From: a virus
Taxonomy: Duplodnaviria; Heunggongvirae; Uroviricota; Caudoviricetes
Length of the DNA: 40,957 bases
Direction: 5' to 3' (one strand)
IMG/VR virus record: IMGVR_UViG_2778261455_000003
Coordinates: 1 to 40,957 of that record
Under the pieces are notes generated by a model. It saw only the letters and a program-made list of their open reading frames with translations, made no database searches and was not told the origin of the DNA. A program made the translations under genes and the position numbers. Shown one piece after another: positions 4,932 to 39,899 of the stretch (positions are counted from its first letter, which is position 1; each line of letters begins with the position of its first letter).

Positions 4932-5470
4932 TGGTTGCCTCCTTTGCGAAGCTGGGCAGCAAAGTCAACTAACCACTCAGTCATTTCAACCTTCCCTACC
5001 AGGTCTGAACCAGGGTGCATACAGCAATCACTTTGCGCCGCTTTGAAATCCTTATACTCATATTCTTGGGCCACCAGATTTTTTGCAGCTTCTATAGCAG
5101 CATCCACCCCCTGCGCCCGAACTTCAGCCAGGAAAGCATCGGTGGCTGGGGTTTTGATTTCGTTAAGCGCATCACTGAATCCACCACGCTCCATACCTAG
5201 CTCTGCTTCGTAATCGGCATCGAATGCAGCGTCTTTGCAGAACTTCTTCATCCCCGCACTCTCCGCTGCCAGCGCCGCGCACTTGGCCTCAAGGTTATCA
5301 ATCGTGATTCCAGCAGAACGACACTCCCGCAACGCCGTTTCTAGTTTTGATTCAAGTTCACCGAACTTACGGACAAGATATTCAGCGTTTGTTTCGTTAA
5401 CCTTTAAATCTCGTGGGATGCATTTACCTTTCAGAAAACCATCCATCTCAATTAGTGACATTTGTTTCAT
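4928..5470 (-). CDS. Hypothetical protein (about 180 aa), possibly Ea22-like
   Basis: [15 protein letters not shown]… preceded by GGAG; its start overlaps (ATGA) the stop of a 54-aa upstream ORF. Confidence 0.45.
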
Positions 5471-9430: not shown

Positions 9431-9740
9431 GTTGACCTCCGATGAAACAACTTTGGAATTGATAGTGATTGCAAAGTGGTTTCTGGCCCCTCGAACTGAG
9501 GGGCAGAAAGAGCATCTCGCCACCTAATAGGTCAATGCTCGGATCGAGAGATTTAATTAACCTCGGTTTTGAAGTTATGCATTCACATAAATCCTCCTGT
9601 TGCATGTGCAGCATTGGCTGTGTTTGGCGGCTGCATTTCGCCTATGGAATTGACTTTGGCGGTGACGCGCCGGGTGCTTATCTTCCGGTTGCCGTCGTGC
9701 AGCTGCACTTCACGTCACCCCAAAGCCAACTACTCTTTGG

Positions 9741-9782
9741 TTCCCGCATTTCGGCGGGACAATCCCATCAATGTTAAAGAGC
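9741..9782 (-). promoter_or_regulatory. nutL-like site (boxA GCTCTTTAACA, boxB hairpin TCCCGCCGAAATGCGGGA)
   Basis: Read on the minus strand between the candidate pL and N; the same boxA and boxB recur on the plus strand downstream of cro. Confidence 0.55.
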
Positions 9783-9828
9783 CTGCCAATCTGTTCCGTT
9801 TGGCTTCCAGCGTCCTGCTGATGGCTAA

Positions 9829-9916
9829 AGAATACTGTAGGTATTTTATTGTGTAAATACCCAAGGTATTTATTTTTGGTGAAATAATGATAAGCAAATG
9901 AATACAAAGGATATTT
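9829..9916 (-). promoter_or_regulatory. Candidate OL operators and pL promoter
   Basis: Three 17-bp inverted repeats of the AATAC-N5-GTATT type at 9830..9846, 9855..9871 and 9900..9916; minus-strand -35 TTTACA and -10 TATTCT with 17-bp spacing overlap them. Confidence 0.5.
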
Positions 9917-10001
9917 ATTTTTTCGGTGTCTGCTTGTTCAGTGCTTTTTATGCGGGATATGTGAAGTGGATCCCGATAGCTATTGCTGCCGGGATTATAG
10001 G

Positions 10002-10370
10002 TTAGTCAGCGAAGGTTAAGACGAGAATTACCTTAATGATGTCTGCTACAACAGACACGGCCATAGATAAACCAAAGACGATCCAAGCCACAGTGATGTC
10101 TTCACTACCATCGTATAGAGTTCCGTAATCACTGGTGTAAGGCGTAAATGTCGCGCCTTGATACAACAGGTATAAGCTTGATCCATAGAGGATAAATGCA
10201 GATATCCCTTGTATTGCTATGACCACTAGAATCATGAAACGAGCTGATCTATGCGCCCAAGCCTGGCTTATTTTTTCTGATAGAGATTTCGCAATAAAAG
10301 CATGCGCTAAGCCGTAAATTGTTGAGATTGCCAACATCCCAAAAAAGCTTGCTATAGCGGTTCCAACCAT
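10002..10370 (-). CDS. Small multi-pass membrane protein co-transcribed downstream of cI; unknown function
   Basis: ATG preceded by AAGGGGAG, 15 nt after the cI stop; about 122 aa with three long hydrophobic segments; occupies the rexAB position relative to cI and N. Confidence 0.55.
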   Translation of the reverse strand: MVGTAIASFFGMLAISTIYGLAHAFIAKSLSEKISQAWAHRSARFMILVVIAIQGISAFILYGSSLYLLYQGATFTPYTSDYGTLYDGSEDITVAWIVFGLSMAVSVVADIIKVILVLTFAD

Positions 10371-10387
10371 AAGCTCCCCTTGCGTGA

Positions 10388-11104
10388 TCAAACCAGCCTT
10401 AGTTTTGTCTCAATTGCAACGCCTATAATCTTGCAGTTTCCATTGATTGGCACGAGAGGCCATGCAGGATTAAGTCCCTTGAGGTATTTATTTCCGCCGT
10501 CGATTATCAGCTTCTTGAATGTTGCTTCGTTAGAGTCAGAAAGTTTTGCTATGACCAAGCTGCCGTTGATCGCCTCCCTTCCGGTATCGAAAAGAACGAA
10601 TGTCCCCTCTGGGATGCTTAACCCAACCGGTGCCGTCATTGAATCACCTTCCACTTTAAGCCAGAACGCATTACCTTGAATATGCGCGTCAGACTCAAGC
10701 CAAACATCTATGTCTTTAATGGTGTATGGTTCGCATGCTTCACACCACGAGCCAGCCTGGATACTGCTTAACACCGGATACCTCTTTCCTGCTCTGTATT
10801 CCCCTGCATACCTTACGTTGGCATCGCTCTTAAGGCTTTCTGCCTGTTCTGCAACCTTGGCAGCAATTGACTGGCTAAAATCAGCAATTGAGACTTGCAA
10901 CAAACGTGCAAAACCAGATGCGACCTCAACGTTTAGCGCGTTTCTGCCATTAAGATAATGCCCTACCGCTCCTTGGGTGATACCCAGTTCATCAGCGATT
11001 GAGTATTGGGTTATTCCCAATTCTTTCTTTTTTGACTCATACAAAGCCTTAAGCCGCTTAGCGTCTTCGAGCTGTTCTGTCGTCAGTGATTTTTTATTTT
11101 CCAT
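10388..11104 (-). CDS. cI: CI-type prophage repressor (HTH plus LexA-like S24 domain)
   Basis: 238-aa ORF; N-terminus …LTTEQLEDAKRLKALYESKKKELGITQ…, similar to lambda cI …[27 protein letters not shown]…; C-terminal GDSMTAP / FKKLI motifs. Confidence 0.9.
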   Translation of the reverse strand: MENKKSLTTEQLEDAKRLKALYESKKKELGITQYSIADELGITQGAVGHYLNGRNALNVEVASGFARLLQVSIADFSQSIAAKVAEQAESLKSDANVRYAGEYRAGKRYPVLSSIQAGSWCEACEPYTIKDIDVWLESDAHIQGNAFWLKVEGDSMTAPVGLSIPEGTFVLFDTGREAINGSLVIAKLSDSNEATFKKLIIDGGNKYLKGLNPAWPLVPINGNCKIIGVAIETKLRLV

Positions 11105-11210
11105 AGCTTAATTCTAATAGCTAAGGTACTTAAATTAAAAATACCCTGAGTATTGATTGCTTTGAATACCTGTAGTATTCTTTGTTCATGGTTAATAACG
11201 GAGAGTGCAT
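11105..11210. promoter_or_regulatory. OR region: candidate operators with divergent pRM and pR
   Basis: Inverted repeats AAATACCCTGAGTATT (11139..11154) and GAATACCTGTAGTATTC (11164..11180), same family as the OL repeats; plus-strand -35 TTGATT and -10 TATTCT (17-bp spacer) overlap them ahead of cro. Confidence 0.55.
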
Positions 11211-11405
11211 ATGATTCGAATGACACTTGCCGATTACGCCAAAATCCATGGACAGGCTAAAGCAGCCAGTGACTTTGGTGTAATCCAGTGCGCTATCAGC
11301 AAGGCCATTCTGGCAGGCCGTAACATCATGGTTACGGTAAAGCCTGATGGCAGTGTGATTGGAGAGGAAGTTCGTCCTTTCCCAAGCAACAAGAAAAACA
11401 AATAG
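11211..11405 (+). CDS. cro: Cro-type repressor
   Basis: ATG after [71 protein letters not shown] resembles lambda Cro. Confidence 0.85.
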
Positions 11406-11411
11406 TAACAC

Positions 11412-11455
11412 CGCTCTTTAACAGTCATGGTCCTCATTCCCGCCGAAATGCGGGA
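11412..11455 (+). promoter_or_regulatory. nutR-like site (boxA CGCTCTTTAACA, boxB hairpin TCCCGCCGAAATGCGGGA)
   Basis: Immediately downstream of the cro stop; boxB identical to the nutL copy. Confidence 0.55.
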
Positions 11456-11513
11456 ATACAACGCGCATAAGTTGATGCGCATAACTTCTTATTAGTTAAG
11501 GAAATACTTACAT

Positions 11514-35194: not shown

Positions 35195-35455
35195 TTAGCT
35201 GCTGTCTTTTTTATATAGCTCTTTGAGCGTATCAAAGACAATTTTCTTAACCATATCGGATTGTTGTTCTGCCATACGCTCTGCATCGTCAATGTAAACT
35301 GATGCAGAGCTTTGTTTATCCAGTGATTCTTCAATCGCTGCAATTATCTCTGAGTTCAGAGACCTGTTATTCATCTTCGCGCGCTGCTTAATTTTCGCGT
35401 GGAGTTCATGCGGAAGTCTCAAGTGAAACTGCGCCTCGTCGTATTTGCTGTACAT
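35195..35455 (-). CDS. mnt: Mnt-type ribbon-helix-helix repressor
   Basis: 86-aa ORF; …FHLRLPHELHAKIKQRAKMNNRSLNSEIIAAIEESL…DDAERMAEQQSDMVKKIVFDTLKELYKK resembles P22 Mnt. Confidence 0.75.
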   Translation of the reverse strand: MYSKYDEAQFHLRLPHELHAKIKQRAKMNNRSLNSEIIAAIEESLDKQSSASVYIDDAERMAEQQSDMVKKIVFDTLKELYKKDSS

Positions 35456-35576
35456 CCTTGATGCCTCACCAATTGGGTGGAATGGCATCGTAACTTACTG
35501 GATAAATACTCAATAGTACCATTTCGGTATGCAATCACATCATGGTTGCATCATATCATTCGTCTGGAGCAATGAA

Positions 35577-37958: not shown

Positions 37959-37984
37959 AAAAAGGGGCATTAGCCCCTTTTTTT
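37957..37984. terminator. Bidirectional intrinsic terminator between convergent tailspike and acyltransferase genes
   Basis: AAAAAAAGGGGC-ATTA-GCCCCTTTTTTT: a perfect GC stem flanked by an A-run and a T-run. Confidence 0.6.
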
Positions 37985-39899
37985 ATTCGAATATTTCCTT
38001 TCTGTATTTATCTACTATGTAAGTAGATCCTGCCTCTGTAAGATGCCCCCAATCAACAGCAGTTATACCTTTTGGTCCTTCTGATGTTCTTGTAAGACAA
38101 CCACCATCTCCACACATAGCCGAATATGGTGAAACGTAATCCACTCCAAGCGTTGGAATATTCTTTTTGAGAAAATCATCCCATTCCTTAATCTGAGGCT
38201 TTAATCCATCCTTCATGTAGCGTGGAGGTTCATTATGATTATTTGTATAGTACAAGACTATTTGTTTTATAAGGCTTTCATCCCACTCAGGCACAGGACC
38301 AACAACAATGATTTTTGATTCAGGAGAAGCAAACTTAATCTTTTTAATTGTTTCATTAAGAGATAAGATGGCCTGATTCTTATCAAATATAGCATTCTGA
38401 CCTTCAACCATCCATGATATTATAATTTTCTTCGGCTTATACATTTCAACGAAATTTAATCTCTCATTATTTGCATCTGTGAGAGTTTTTAGTGTATCTG
38501 TCTTTCTGTTGTCAAAATAGAAAGGAGGCCCATTCCCATCGGTCATCTGGCTAATGAAAACATCTTTGTAATACTTGTCGCTAACATTTTTCAATCCGCT
38601 ATATAAAGCGGCAGCGTATGAATCACCCCATATAAATATTTGATTATCGCTCTTAGCTACGCAACCACTACTTACTGCAACCTCTGGTGTTACAGAGTGG
38701 CATTTATTGCTTCTCATTAAATTTGGGTAATCGAAAAAATCATAAACGTTAATTATTGAGCTATATTCCTTGGCTATTTCGTTAATCTTTCTATCTTGTA
38801 TTCCATTATGCTTATATACGTACAGTCCAGCCTGGCCAACTATGAAAAGAATGATGGCGGAAACAGCAGCATTATAACCCCTATGCTTTCCAAACCTTAC
38901 TTTACGCTCAACTAAGTAAAACGATAGGAACGCTAAAATCATTGAGGCGAAAATTATAAAAATACCGTTCAGTAAGTCTATATCGCTTGCCGTTTTCAAC
39001 TTGTAGAAAACTATTAAAGGCCAGTGCCACAGGTAAAGCGGGTAGCTAATTAATCCAATGAATACAAATAACTTATTAGACAGCAGACGCCCAACACAAC
39101 TATCATTGCCATAACACACTATCATAGCAGTACCAGCAACAGGAACCATTGCAATGTATCCCGGGAAATTCATTTTGCTGTTTATAAAAAACATTGAAAA
39201 AACAATCAAAATAAAACCAATTACCGGCACGATAATATTAAGCGTGGATTTTCTATTACCCCCATCTCTGAATGTTAGAGATATGGCAGCCCCTGTCATT
39301 AATTCCCATAATCTCGTTAAAGGAGAGTAATAGCTTACACTTTGGTTATGTATTGTTTCATATATACAATATAGCAGGCTTGCTATAAATAATAACATTA
39401 TGTAAATTCTTGCAGAATTCTTTCTTTTGACAATAAGAAGTATTAATGCAGGCCATATTATATAGAATTGCTCCTCAACACCCAAAGACCATAGGTGTAG
39501 CAATGGTTTCAATTCAGACGCTGTATCAAAGTATCCTGACTCAAGAATATATCCTATATTAGCAACGAAGAATGCGCCTGTAAAAACGTTCTTTCCTAGC
39601 GAGGCGTATTCACTCTGAAGAAGGAAGAACCAACCATAAATTAATGAAGCTGCCAGAACAGCAATCAGAGATGGGAATATTCTTAGCGCTCTTCTTTTAT
39701 AAAATTCAGTGTAACTGAATTTATTAGTAAGTGCTTCACTATAAATAATGTTTGTTATAAGGTATCCAGATATAACAAAGAATATATCAACACCAACGAA
39801 TCCACCTGGTAGAGTGCTTGGGAAAATGTGATAAACAATTACTGACAATACAGCAATTGCTCGTAGCCCATCGATATCAGGTCTGTATTTTATAGACAT
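37983..39899 (-). CDS. Membrane acyltransferase (AT3 domain plus C-terminal SGNH-like domain); probable O-antigen acetyltransferase
   Basis: 638-aa ORF with about ten hydrophobic segments in the N-terminal two-thirds and a soluble C-terminal domain; markedly AT-rich compared with neighbouring phage genes. Confidence 0.8.
   Translation of the reverse strand: MSIKYRPDIDGLRAIAVLSVIVYHIFPSTLPGGFVGVDIFFVISGYLITNIIYSEALTNKFSYTEFYKRRALRIFPSLIAVLAASLIYGWFFLLQSEYASLGKNVFTGAFFVANIGYILESGYFDTASELKPLLHLWSLGVEEQFYIIWPALILLIVKRKNSARIYIMLLFIASLLYCIYETIHNQSVSYYSPLTRLWELMTGAAISLTFRDGGNRKSTLNIIVPVIGFILIVFSMFFINSKMNFPGYIAMVPVAGTAMIVCYGNDSCVGRLLSNKLFVFIGLISYPLYLWHWPLIVFYKLKTASDIDLLNGIFIIFASMILAFLSFYLVERKVRFGKHRGYNAAVSAIILFIVGQAGLYVYKHNGIQDRKINEIAKEYSSIINVYDFFDYPNLMRSNKCHSVTPEVAVSSGCVAKSDNQIFIWGDSYAAALYSGLKNVSDKYYKDVFISQMTDGNGPPFYFDNRKTDTLKTLTDANNERLNFVEMYKPKKIIISWMVEGQNAIFDKNQAILSLNETIKKIKFASPESKIIVVGPVPEWDESLIKQIVLYYTNNHNEPPRYMKDGLKPQIKEWDDFLKKNIPTLGVDYVSPYSAMCGDGGCLTRTSEGPKGITAVDWGHLTEAGSTYIVDKYRKEIFE

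What the first reader, a model, noticed from the sequence alone, without database searches (positions are those of the whole stretch)
10002..10391. Unknown small membrane protein co-transcribed with the cI repressor, in the rexAB position
A roughly 122-aa protein with three hydrophobic helices starts 15 nt after the cI stop with its own RBS, so it should be expressed from pRM in the lysogen. In lambda this slot holds the rexA/rexB exclusion system, and genes co-expressed with the repressor are classic superinfection-exclusion or abortive-infection cargo. It resembles neither RexB nor SieB as far as I recall, so it is a candidate single-gene membrane defence or exclusion factor.
Basis: partly seen in the sequence, partly recalled or inferred. 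Interest (0 to 1): 0.7.

Follow-up and report, generated by a model that had tools for sequence, protein, structure and literature searches.

The report
Orphan membrane gene behind prophage repressor
The gene is real: a small three-helix membrane protein that sits directly behind the prophage repressor gene and is already annotated as hkaS ("unknown") in coliphage HK620; it is a sound but untested candidate for a factor that keeps other phages out.

Summary
Window 10002-10370 (minus strand) encodes a 122-aa protein. It starts 17 nt, not 15, after the cI stop codon and has its own Shine-Dalgarno sequence. No promoter or terminator match lies between the two genes. The gene is not new: it is hkaS of phage HK620, annotated "unknown" in AF335538, and matches PHROG 6534 (function unknown). 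It is a real gene. dN/dS is 0.14-0.2, all 80 viral-contig copies are intact, and every copy whose upstream sequence is available sits 17-20 nt behind the same cI lineage in E. coli, Salmonella and Hafnia-type prophages. Its synonymous divergence equals that of cI, but its protein changes 4-6 times faster. The model (pLDDT 92) and hydropathy give three transmembrane helices, N terminus out and C terminus in. I found no sequence or fold relation to RexB, SieB, SieA, 434 Hex, any Pfam, PADLOC or NCBIfam family, or any solved structure. The slot behind cI varies between phages: rexAB in lambda, hex in 434, empty in P22. My best guess is a prophage-expressed inner-membrane exclusion factor that blocks genome entry, as SieA does. 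No experiment supports this. Rival functions, such as Hex-like stabilisation of lysogeny, abortive infection or a host-fitness role, remain open. Interest is moderate.

The parts
10002..10370 (-). hkaS coding sequence, 122 aa plus stop codon TAA at 10004-10002. Predicted three-pass inner-membrane protein: TM1 about 1-27, cytoplasmic loop 28-44, TM2 45-70, periplasmic loop 71-92, TM3 93-121.
10374..10381 (-). Shine-Dalgarno sequence AAGGGGAG for hkaS, inside the 17-nt cI-hkaS spacer (10371-10387).
   Evidence: sequence; a purine-rich SD and a 17-20 nt spacer are kept in all five lineages; spacers of 17-19 nt in 79 of 79 viral contigs.
10388..11104 (-). cI repressor (HTH_3 + Peptidase_S24, 238 aa), first cistron of the operon.
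11111..11116 (-). Putative pRM -10 hexamer TAGAAT. It ends 6 nt before the cI ATG, which would make the maintenance transcript leaderless or nearly so, as in lambda. This is an inference from the sequence.
   Evidence: sequence. By offset from the HK620 annotation, OR3, OR2 and OR1 map to 11115-11131, 11139-11155 and 11164-11180. The consensus scan did not report it, as expected for a weak, activator-dependent promoter.
9970..9995 (-). Stem-loop AUCCCGG...CCGGGAU beginning 7 nt after the hkaS stop, with no U tract. Possible 3' end or stabiliser of the immunity transcript.
   Evidence: MFE and centroid structures. E. coli and Hafnia-type loci keep it, and L007 has a different GC-rich hairpin at the same place.
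9900..9916 (-). Operator-like 17-mer AAATATCCTTTGTATTC, nearly invariant in five diverged lineages. It overlaps the stretch that HK620 annotates as the terminator tIMM (maps to 9890-9920).
9829..9871 (-). pL (-35 TTTACA, -10 TATTCT) with OL1 (9830-9846) and OL2 (9855-9871). This is the downstream boundary of the cI-hkaS unit.

Best explanation
hkaS is the second cistron of the immunity (pRM/pRE) operon of the HK620-type immunity region. In the lysogen, cI bound at OR2 would activate pRM. The transcript would run through cI and, 17 nt later, through hkaS, which has its own Shine-Dalgarno sequence, and would end before OL/pL. The product is predicted to insert into the cytoplasmic membrane as a three-helix bundle. 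The N terminus and an acidic, Tyr-rich 22-residue hairpin would face the periplasm. A conserved basic amphipathic loop (KISQAWAHRxARF) and the invariant C-terminal ILVLTFAD would face the cytoplasm. The function I think most likely is this: a prophage-expressed accessory protein that excludes heteroimmune superinfecting phages at the inner membrane by interfering with genome delivery. In that case the host cell would survive. It would work like P22 SieA or HK97 gp15 without being related to them. What is shown: gene reality, conservation, strict linkage to cI, operon architecture and the predicted fold. What is inferred from sequence: membrane topology and pRM-driven expression. What is inferred from position and analogy only: the exclusion function and its mechanism.
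For: Real, selected gene:
- Full-length PHROG 6534 match.
- dN/dS 0.14-0.2, with synonymous sites saturated in the distant pairs and the length fixed at 122 codons.
- 80 of 80 viral-contig copies intact.

Operon:
- 17-20 nt spacer with SD in all lineages.
- No promoter- or terminator-like site between cI and hkaS.
- pL/OL lie immediately downstream.
- hkaS is always found with cI: all 146 E. coli genomes that match hold both genes, out of 5426 complete genomes searched; the same 16 phage records hold both; all 8 diverged loci with the upstream sequence available; and 79 of 79 viral contigs.
- dS is equal for cI and hkaS (0.74 and 0.69), so they diverged as one unit.

Membrane protein:
- Three hydrophobic spans. 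Loop 1 has net charge about +3 and loop 2 has net charge -4, which by the positive-inside rule gives N-out, C-in.
- AlphaFold2 pLDDT 92, with helices at 2-29, 41-73 and 89-121.

Slot logic:
- Lambda has rexAB here and 434/Sf101 have hex.
- The Hex paper names RexAB, 933W Stk and Hex as pRM-transcribed accessory proteins, each reported to exclude other phages (PMC3564112).
- Phage epsilon34 has two orphan genes 'like rexA and rexB' behind its repressor (PMC2629481).

Architectural analogy:
- P22 SieA is a 162-164 aa inner-membrane protein with three predicted TM helices. It is sufficient on its own to block DNA injection, and its best-conserved motif is cytoplasmic (PMC10883804). HkaS likewise has its best-conserved segments on the predicted cytoplasmic side.
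- HkaS changes 4-5.6 times faster than cI at the protein level. This fits an accessory protein at a conflict interface, although membrane proteins often evolve fast anyway.
- Among the ten ORFs of this prophage that I scanned, none matched SieA or SieB.
Against: - I found no experiment of any kind on this protein.
- hkaS travels with the immunity region through phages with different virion types: P22-like HK620, HK140 and mEpX2, HK630, and Stx-converting phages. It is therefore not matched to any one injection apparatus.
- The periplasmic loop is short and the least conserved part (4 of 22 positions invariant). The cytoplasmic loop is the most conserved (9 of 17). This would fit a cytoplasmic partner just as well.
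- Stable retention with one cI lineage through saturating synonymous divergence is unusual for a freely swapped moron and could point to a role tied to the repressor.
- No intrinsic terminator with a U tract follows the gene, so the transcript's 3' end is undefined.
Confidence: 0.33

Rival explanations
1. Host-fitness lysogenic conversion unrelated to phages. HkaS would be an inner-membrane protein that protects or adapts the lysogen. One example would be immunity to a membrane-targeting toxin; pore-forming colicin and microcin immunity proteins are, from my own knowledge, also small inner-membrane proteins of about 80-180 aa with 2-4 TM helices. Another would be a modulator of a host membrane transporter or stress response.
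For: The size and three-TM topology fit this class as well as they fit exclusion proteins. The gene is retained under purifying selection in prophages of at least three genera. The invariant D110/K113 pair inside TM3 and Q54 in TM2 suggest specific contacts within the membrane. The same prophage carries another conversion gene, an O-antigen acetylase.
Against: No similarity to any Pfam family, colicin immunity families included. No cognate toxin gene is evident nearby. The characterised occupants of this slot named are all reported to act on phages, and Hex also acts on repressor stability.
Confidence: 0.18
2. Abortive infection. HkaS would be a latent membrane-permeabilising or depolarising protein, working like RexB or SieB or a holin. 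A membrane-inserting protein of the superinfecting phage would trigger it, killing the cell before progeny are made.
For: It occupies the rexB position in the operon. It has charged residues buried in TM3 (D110, K113) and Q54 in TM2, as an oligomeric pore might have. From my own knowledge, class I holins share the N-out, C-in three-TM topology.
Against: There is no partner sensor gene like rexA; the operon holds only cI and hkaS. The loops of 17 and 22 residues leave little room for sensing. hhalign probability is 0.7% against RexB and 0.05% against SieB. The charged C-terminal tail typical of holins is absent. No PADLOC hit.
Confidence: 0.13
3. Modulator of the lysis-lysogeny switch, working like 434 Hex. 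HkaS would stabilise lysogeny or tune induction, for example by limiting RecA-stimulated cleavage of its cognate cI or by linking the state of the envelope to induction.
For: 434 cI is 52% identical to this cI. The gene in the same slot, hex, is co-transcribed from pRM. Deleting hex raised spontaneous phage release 30-fold in a RecA-dependent way, and a Hex fragment blocked RecA-stimulated cleavage of the 434 and P22 repressors (PMC3564112). hkaS is never separated from this cI lineage, even after synonymous sites have saturated. Its best-conserved segments are the predicted cytoplasmic loop and C terminus.
Against: HkaS and the 434 slot protein share no similarity, and the 434 ORF as annotated starts with a signal-peptide-like sequence. 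HkaS is almost entirely membrane-embedded, with only about 17 + 10 cytoplasmic residues. The tight linkage is also explained trivially by the 17-nt spacing inside the imm region, between OL and OR.
Confidence: 0.12
4. Non-functional or mis-called ORF. Under this reading the sequence is conserved for a non-coding reason, such as a 3' UTR of the cI transcript.
For: No function is known. The family is extremely narrow: one full-length cluster among 1.84 billion representative proteins.
Against: dN/dS is 0.14-0.2 with saturated synonymous sites. The 122-codon length is exact in proteins only 50-60% identical. 80 of 80 copies are intact. The SD and ATG are conserved. The AlphaFold2 model is confident.
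Confidence: 0.03

Closest known systems
hkaS of coliphage HK620 (AAK28867.1), HK630 'HkaS protein', HK140_049; PHROG 6534
   Same: It is the same gene. Protein identity is 97-99% and the position between cI and OL/pL is the same.
   Different: Nothing substantive differs. The window is a different P22-like prophage backbone (closest overall are HZ41, mEpX1 and HK140) that carries the same immunity region. All records annotate the gene as unknown or hypothetical.
Lambda RexB, with RexA (Pfam PF15968)
   Same: Both are transcribed with cI from pRM, lie between cI and OL, and are small multi-pass inner-membrane proteins.
   Different: No sequence relation: the Pfam RexB model does not hit HkaS, and hhalign probability is 0.7%. 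There is no RexA-like partner. HkaS has three predicted TM helices and 122 aa, against 144 aa for RexB.
P22 SieA
   Same: Both are prophage-expressed proteins with three predicted TM helices. [quoted passage not shown] Its best-conserved motif lies on the cytoplasmic face (PMC10883804), as do the best-conserved segments of HkaS.
   Different: No sequence relation (hhalign probability 0.3%). SieA sits in the immI/ant moron with its own promoter, not in the cI operon. SieA is 162-164 aa. HkaS has not been tested for function.
Phage 434 Hex (also in Sf101)
   Same: Both are the cistron directly behind a homologous cI (52% identity), on the pRM transcript.
   Different: The sequences are unrelated. 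The 434 ORF begins with a signal-peptide-like N terminus and has no multi-pass membrane region. Hex has documented exclusion and repressor-protection phenotypes. HkaS has none.
P22 SieB / HK620 hkaP (Pfam PF14163)
   Same: Both are encoded near the immunity region of lambdoid prophages, and SieB is an exclusion protein.
   Different: No Pfam SieB hit, and hhalign probability is 0.05%. sieB lies beyond N, on the opposite strand, with its own promoter. HK620 and HK140 carry both a SieB-like gene and hkaS.

Membership tests
HkaS family (PHROG 6534) | Full-length sequence match to the family profile | tested here: met
   E = 4.8e-79 over residues 1-122 of a 122-position profile. 97-99% identical to HK620 hkaS.
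HkaS family (PHROG 6534) | Position directly downstream of an HK620-type cI, upstream of OL/pL | tested here: met
   79 of 79 viral contigs, all 146 matching E. coli genomes, and all 8 diverged loci with the upstream sequence available.
RexB (Pfam PF15968; lambda RexAB abortive infection) | Sequence match to the RexB profile | tested here: not met
   No hit at E <= 1. The control, lambda RexB, hits at 8.5e-92. hhalign probability 0.7%.
RexB (Pfam PF15968; lambda RexAB abortive infection) | Adjacent RexA-like sensor gene | tested here: not met
   Only cI and hkaS lie between OR and OL.
RexB (Pfam PF15968; lambda RexAB abortive infection) | Co-transcription with cI from pRM | tested here: inconclusive
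   The architecture supports it: a 17-nt spacer with no promoter or terminator match. No transcript data were available.
SieB (Pfam PF14163) | Sequence match to the SieB profile | tested here: not met
   No hit. The control, P22 SieB, hits at 4.3e-29. hhalign probability 0.05%.
SieA (P22-type inner-membrane injection blocker) | Sequence similarity, including the FxRYPxEAxxFNK motif | tested here: not met
   hhalign probability 0.3%. The motif is absent from HkaS (motif taken from PMC10883804).
SieA (P22-type inner-membrane injection blocker) | Blocks DNA injection of superinfecting phage when expressed alone | not testable with these tools
   This needs plating, K+ efflux and DNA-entry assays.
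434 Hex | Sequence similarity to the 434 ORF behind cI | tested here: not met
   BLASTP E = 4.1 over 8 residues.
434 Hex | Lowers RecA-dependent spontaneous induction or repressor autocleavage | not testable with these tools
   This needs induction assays in delta-hkaS lysogens, as described in PMC3564112.
Known anti-phage defence systems (PADLOC-DB v2) | Match to any defence-protein model | tested here: not met
   No families at E <= 1.
Integral inner-membrane protein (generic) | At least two hydrophobic spans of TM length, with loop charges that follow the positive-inside rule | tested here: met
   Three spans with 19-residue Kyte-Doolittle means above 1.6. Loop 28-44 holds K28, K33, R41 and R44 against E32. 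Loop 71-92 holds D81, D87, E90 and D91. The model has helices of 28-33 residues. No dedicated topology predictor was available.

The most novel reading that the evidence does not exclude
HkaS is functionally tied to its repressor and is not a free-standing moron. It would be a membrane-embedded partner that couples the state of the envelope or membrane to repressor stability or prophage induction. That would be a Hex-like activity carried out from the membrane. It would explain why hkaS has stayed with this one cI lineage through saturating synonymous divergence, and why its predicted cytoplasmic loop and C-terminal ILVLTFAD are its most conserved parts. A second, less exotic novel reading is that HkaS founds a new family of single-protein inner-membrane phage-exclusion factors. 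I put that second reading at about 0.45.
Probability: 0.1. Interest if true: 0.75.

Novelty: new member of a known kind. Interest (0 to 1): 0.4.

Why it matters
Genes transcribed with the prophage repressor are among the few phage genes that are on in every lysogen. The characterised examples named in the Hex paper are RexAB, 933W Stk and 434 Hex. Each is reported to exclude other phages, and Hex also stabilises lysogeny. HkaS is an uncharacterised, sequence-orphan occupant of that slot. It is present in 146 of 5426 complete E. coli genomes (about 2.7%), and some Stx-converting phages carry it. If it excludes phages, it adds a new, very small single-gene membrane defence. That would matter for phage-therapy host range and for competition between prophages in STEC. 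If it instead tunes induction, it would bear on Stx-phage stability. The test is cheap: one 369-bp gene and standard plating and induction assays. Specialists already expect variable accessory genes in this slot, so the finding is a good candidate and not a surprise.

Tried and rejected
**Family searches**
- Pfam, NCBIfam and PADLOC scans of HkaS, and Pfam on all seven aligned members, gave only sub-threshold transmembrane-composition hits (Cation_ATPase_C, TssN).
- A profile search of 1.84 billion representative proteins found one full-length cluster and one fragment, so no distant relatives could be used.
- A profile search against PDB sequences found nothing at E <= 10.
- The AFDB library was unavailable.
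- A scan of one genome per species (GTDB) found no relative.

**Fold searches**
- Foldseek against PDB and BFVD found nothing at E below 0.1.

**Direct comparisons**
- HkaS against lambda RexB, P22 SieB, P22 SieA and the 434 Hex-slot ORF: all negative.

**Literature**
- Searches for hkaS, its accessions, the PHROG id, the carrier phages and HK620 lysogen transcriptomics found no functional study.

**Other leads**
- A 35-aa hydrophobic ORF convergent with hkaS (9898-10005, plus strand) was considered as a hidden partner or toxin. I rejected it: it is absent from the Salmonella and L007 lineages, and its start lies in a conserved operator-like site.
- Short Logan contigs (1080 and 1173 nt) covering cI-hkaS were considered as possible transcript assemblies. 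They begin inside cI, and I could not determine the type of sequencing run, so they are not used as evidence.
- GC content does not mark hkaS as foreign: about 0.42, against about 0.47 for cI.
Full report
**1. What is there**

The minus strand of the window holds an ORF at 10002..10391, 129 aa from a TTG that overlaps the cI stop codon. The start used by every annotation and kept in every homologue is the ATG at 10370. This gives a 122-aa protein, MVGTAIASFF...ILVLTFAD.

Directly upstream on the same strand lies a 238-aa cI repressor at 10388-11104, with HTH_3 and Peptidase_S24 domains. The cI stop (TGA, 10390-10388) and the ATG are 17 nt apart. The spacer contains AAGGGGAG.

Downstream come these features, in order:
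- a stem-loop at 9970-9995;
- an operator-like 17-mer at 9900-9916;
- OL2 and OL1 with pL at 9829-9871;
- nutL (by offset from the HK620 annotation) and an N-like antiterminator.

On the other side of cI lie the OR operators, cro (11211-11405) and cII.

**2. It is a known gene with unknown function**

The region 9650-11500 is 98.6-99.3% identical to the immunity regions of HK140, HK620, HK630, mEpX2, HZ41, HF4s, phi296/phi367 and two Stx2c-converting phages.

In the HK620 record (AF335538) the gene is named hkaS, product "unknown". It lies between cI and features annotated tIMM, OL3-OL1 and pL. HK630 calls it "HkaS protein", and the other records say "hypothetical". It matches PHROG 6534 (function unknown) over its full length at E = 4.8e-79. 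RefSeq annotates it as a hypothetical protein in E. coli genomes. I found no paper that studies it.

The window as a whole is a P22-like prophage. It has an integrase, terminase, portal, large ORFs where P22-like phages have their ejection-protein and tailspike genes, and an O-antigen acetylase. Its closest relatives overall are HZ41, mEpX1 and HK140.

**3. It is a real gene under selection, locked to one cI lineage**

The family is tiny:
- 12 clusters at 90% identity in a 5.8-billion-protein collection;
- one full-length cluster plus one fragment among 1.84 billion 50%-identity representatives when searched with a profile;
- none in the one-genome-per-species set.

Diverged members keep exactly 122 residues. 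These are a Hafnia-type protein at 82% identity, a Salmonella protein at 60%, and two others at 56% and 52%.

Position is constant. In every diverged locus where the upstream sequence is available, the gene sits 17-20 nt behind a cI that is 86-96% identical to the window's cI, with cro divergent on the other side and an N-type antiterminator gene (80-107 aa) next downstream in almost every locus. The SD and ATG are kept in all five lineages aligned.

Co-occurrence with cI is complete in every data set:
- all 146 E. coli genomes with a match, out of 5426 complete genomes, hold both genes;
- in the phage collection, the 16 records whose cI is at least 99% identical are the same 16 that hold hkaS, and no other record has hkaS at E <= 1;
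- of 80 IMG/VR contigs, all 80 have an intact 122-codon ORF, and all 79 with upstream flank have cI 17-19 nt away.

Codon analysis supports selection. dN/dS is 0.14 for window against the Hafnia-type locus and about 0.2 for the Salmonella locus against the Hafnia-type locus. Synonymous sites are saturated (pS about 0.8) in the more distant pairs. Synonymous divergence is the same in cI and hkaS (0.74 and 0.69), so the two genes have diverged together as one unit. hkaS accumulates amino-acid changes 3.7-5.6 times faster than cI, whose dN/dS is about 0.03.

**4. The protein**

Kyte-Doolittle analysis gives three hydrophobic spans, at about 1-27, 45-70 and 93-121. The 28-44 loop is basic (K28, K33, R41 and R44 against E32). 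The 71-92 loop is acidic (D81, D87, E90, D91). By the positive-inside rule, the N terminus and loop 2 are periplasmic, and loop 1 and the C terminus are cytoplasmic. This is an inference; no dedicated topology predictor was available.

AlphaFold2 on the 7-sequence alignment gives mean pLDDT 92 and pTM 0.79. The model has helices at 2-29, 31-38 (short), 41-73 and 89-121, and a small beta-hairpin in loop 2.

Invariant residues include Q54 in TM2, D110 and K113 inside TM3, the motif K-I-x-Q-x-W-x-H-x-x-A-R-F in loop 1, YLLY at the end of TM2, and the C-terminal ILVLT-A. By region, the cytoplasmic loop is the best conserved (9 of 17 positions invariant) and the periplasmic loop the least (4 of 22).

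**5. No recognisable relatives**

Sequence searches found nothing:
- Pfam gives only sub-threshold hits that reflect transmembrane composition.
- NCBIfam and PADLOC give nothing.
- A profile search against PDB sequences gives nothing.

Direct tests were all negative:

| Compared with | Result |
|---|---|
| Lambda RexB | hhalign probability 0.7% |
| P22 SieB | hhalign probability 0.05% |
| P22 SieA | hhalign probability 0.3% |
| 434 Hex-slot ORF | BLASTP E = 4.1 |

The Pfam RexB and SieB models do hit their own proteins strongly, so the negative results are meaningful.

**6. The slot**

The position behind cI varies between lambdoid phages:
- Lambda has rexA and rexB.
- 434 and Sf101 (cI 51-52% identical to this one) have a 134-aa ORF, hex, that overlaps the cI stop.
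- P22 has nothing, only 39 nt between c2 and OL.
- Cronobacter phage ENT39118 (cI 65% identical) has no hkaS and no annotated gene abutting cI.
- Phage epsilon34 has two orphan genes "like rexA and rexB" (PMC2629481).

The Hex paper states that many lambdoid phages encode accessory proteins on the pRM transcript. It cites RexAB (excludes T4 rII), 933W Stk (aborts HK97 infection) and Hex (heterologous exclusion of P22). It then shows that Hex also lowers RecA-dependent spontaneous induction and blocks RecA-stimulated cleavage of the 434 and P22 repressors (PMC3564112).

**7. How it most likely works**

Shown here: the architecture, the conservation and the linkage to cI.

Inferred from sequence: pRM has a TAGAAT -10 hexamer at 11111-11116, which overlaps the mapped OR3 position and ends 6 nt before the cI ATG. 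This would give a leaderless or near-leaderless cI message, as in lambda (the lambda comparison is from my own knowledge). hkaS, which has a normal SD, would be translated independently from the same transcript. The pRE transcript should also cover it.

Inferred by analogy: the function. I rank the options as follows.
- **(a) Inner-membrane block of genome entry by heteroimmune phages: 0.33.** The closest working analogue is P22 SieA. SieA is a 162-164 aa inner-membrane protein with three predicted TM helices. It is sufficient alone, and its best-conserved motif is cytoplasmic.
- **(b) Host-fitness conversion, such as immunity to a membrane toxin: 0.18.**
- **(c) Abortive infection by membrane permeabilisation: 0.13.** The lack of a sensor partner and the very short loops argue against it.
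- **(d) Hex-like modulation of repressor stability or induction: 0.12.** The unbroken linkage to one cI lineage and the conserved cytoplasmic face favour it. The near-total membrane embedding and the trivial physical linkage argue against it.
- **(e) Not a gene: 0.03.** The selection data effectively exclude this.

One point counts against (a). hkaS travels with the immunity region through phages of different virion types. Any target must therefore be general, or must belong to other phages.

**8. Verdict**

The gene is already in the databases as hkaS, function unknown. What this work adds is evidence:
- that the gene is real and under selection;
- that it has co-diverged with one cI lineage while evolving 4-6 times faster;
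- that its predicted topology places the conserved surfaces on the cytoplasmic side;
- that it is unrelated to RexB, SieA, SieB, Hex or any known defence family.

I class it as a new, uncharacterised member of a known kind, the accessory genes of the prophage immunity operon. Interest is moderate, and the gene can be tested directly with simple genetics.

Noticed in passing
window 9898-10005 (+): A 35-aa very hydrophobic ORF (MNTKDIYFFGVCLFSAFYAGYVKWIPIAIAAGIIG) runs convergent to hkaS and ends at the hkaS stop codon. It is absent from the Salmonella (L003) and L007 lineages. The Hafnia-type locus has only a loosely similar TTG-started ORF. Its ATG lies inside the conserved operator-like 17-mer. 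It is probably spurious.
   Followed up: yes
window 9900-9916 (-), compared with HK620 annotation mapped to 9877-9920: The 17-mer AAATATCCTTTGTATTC has the same half-sites as OL1 and OL2 (AAATAC...GTATT) and is nearly invariant in five diverged lineages. In HK620 this stretch is annotated as the terminator tIMM. The annotated OL3 (maps to 9877-9893) looks little like an operator and is poorly conserved. The real third left operator may be this site, about 45 bp from OL2.
   Followed up: partly
window 9970-9995 (-); L007 about 5375-5400: A stem-loop with no U tract directly follows the hkaS stop. The L007 lineage has a different GC-rich hairpin (CCCGGGCATCCCGGG) at the same place. This suggests that a 3'-end structure is maintained while its sequence is not.
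   Followed up: partly
window 11105-11116 (-): A TAGAAT hexamer ends 6 nt before the cI ATG, and there is no Shine-Dalgarno sequence for cI. This suggests a leaderless cI mRNA from pRM, as in lambda. The downstream hkaS has a strong SD and might therefore be translated more efficiently than cI from the maintenance transcript.
   Followed up: partly
window 37983-39899 (-) and 35195-35488 (-): The prophage encodes an O-antigen acetylase (PHROG 6705, E about 1e-179), which is a lysogenic-conversion gene, and an Mnt/Arc-like repressor next to the likely tailspike gene. None of the ten ORFs I scanned matched SieA or SieB.
   Followed up: partly
window 9500-9650; 9583-9708 (-): A segment of about 150 bp between N and nutL is shared only with HK140 among the phage records. 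HK140 annotates a 41-aa hypothetical ORF there, which has no PHROG match.
   Followed up: no
L012 2109-2513 (phage 434) and L013 2109-2513 (Sf101): The ORF behind 434 cI, annotated 'repressor protection protein' (Hex), begins with a signal-peptide-like sequence (MIRIAALLSILLTTSANSEC...). That is odd for a protein proposed to act on RecA-stimulated repressor cleavage in the cytoplasm. The published work used a longer 158-aa reading and a fragment of the protein.
   Followed up: no
L016 (Logan SRR31598818, 1080 nt) and L017 (SRR23529891, 1173 nt): Two short assembled contigs consist of part of cI plus hkaS. L016 ends 85 nt past the hkaS stop, close to the tIMM/operator-like site. They could be transcript assemblies or repeat-induced assembly breaks. 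I could not determine the type of sequencing run.
   Followed up: no
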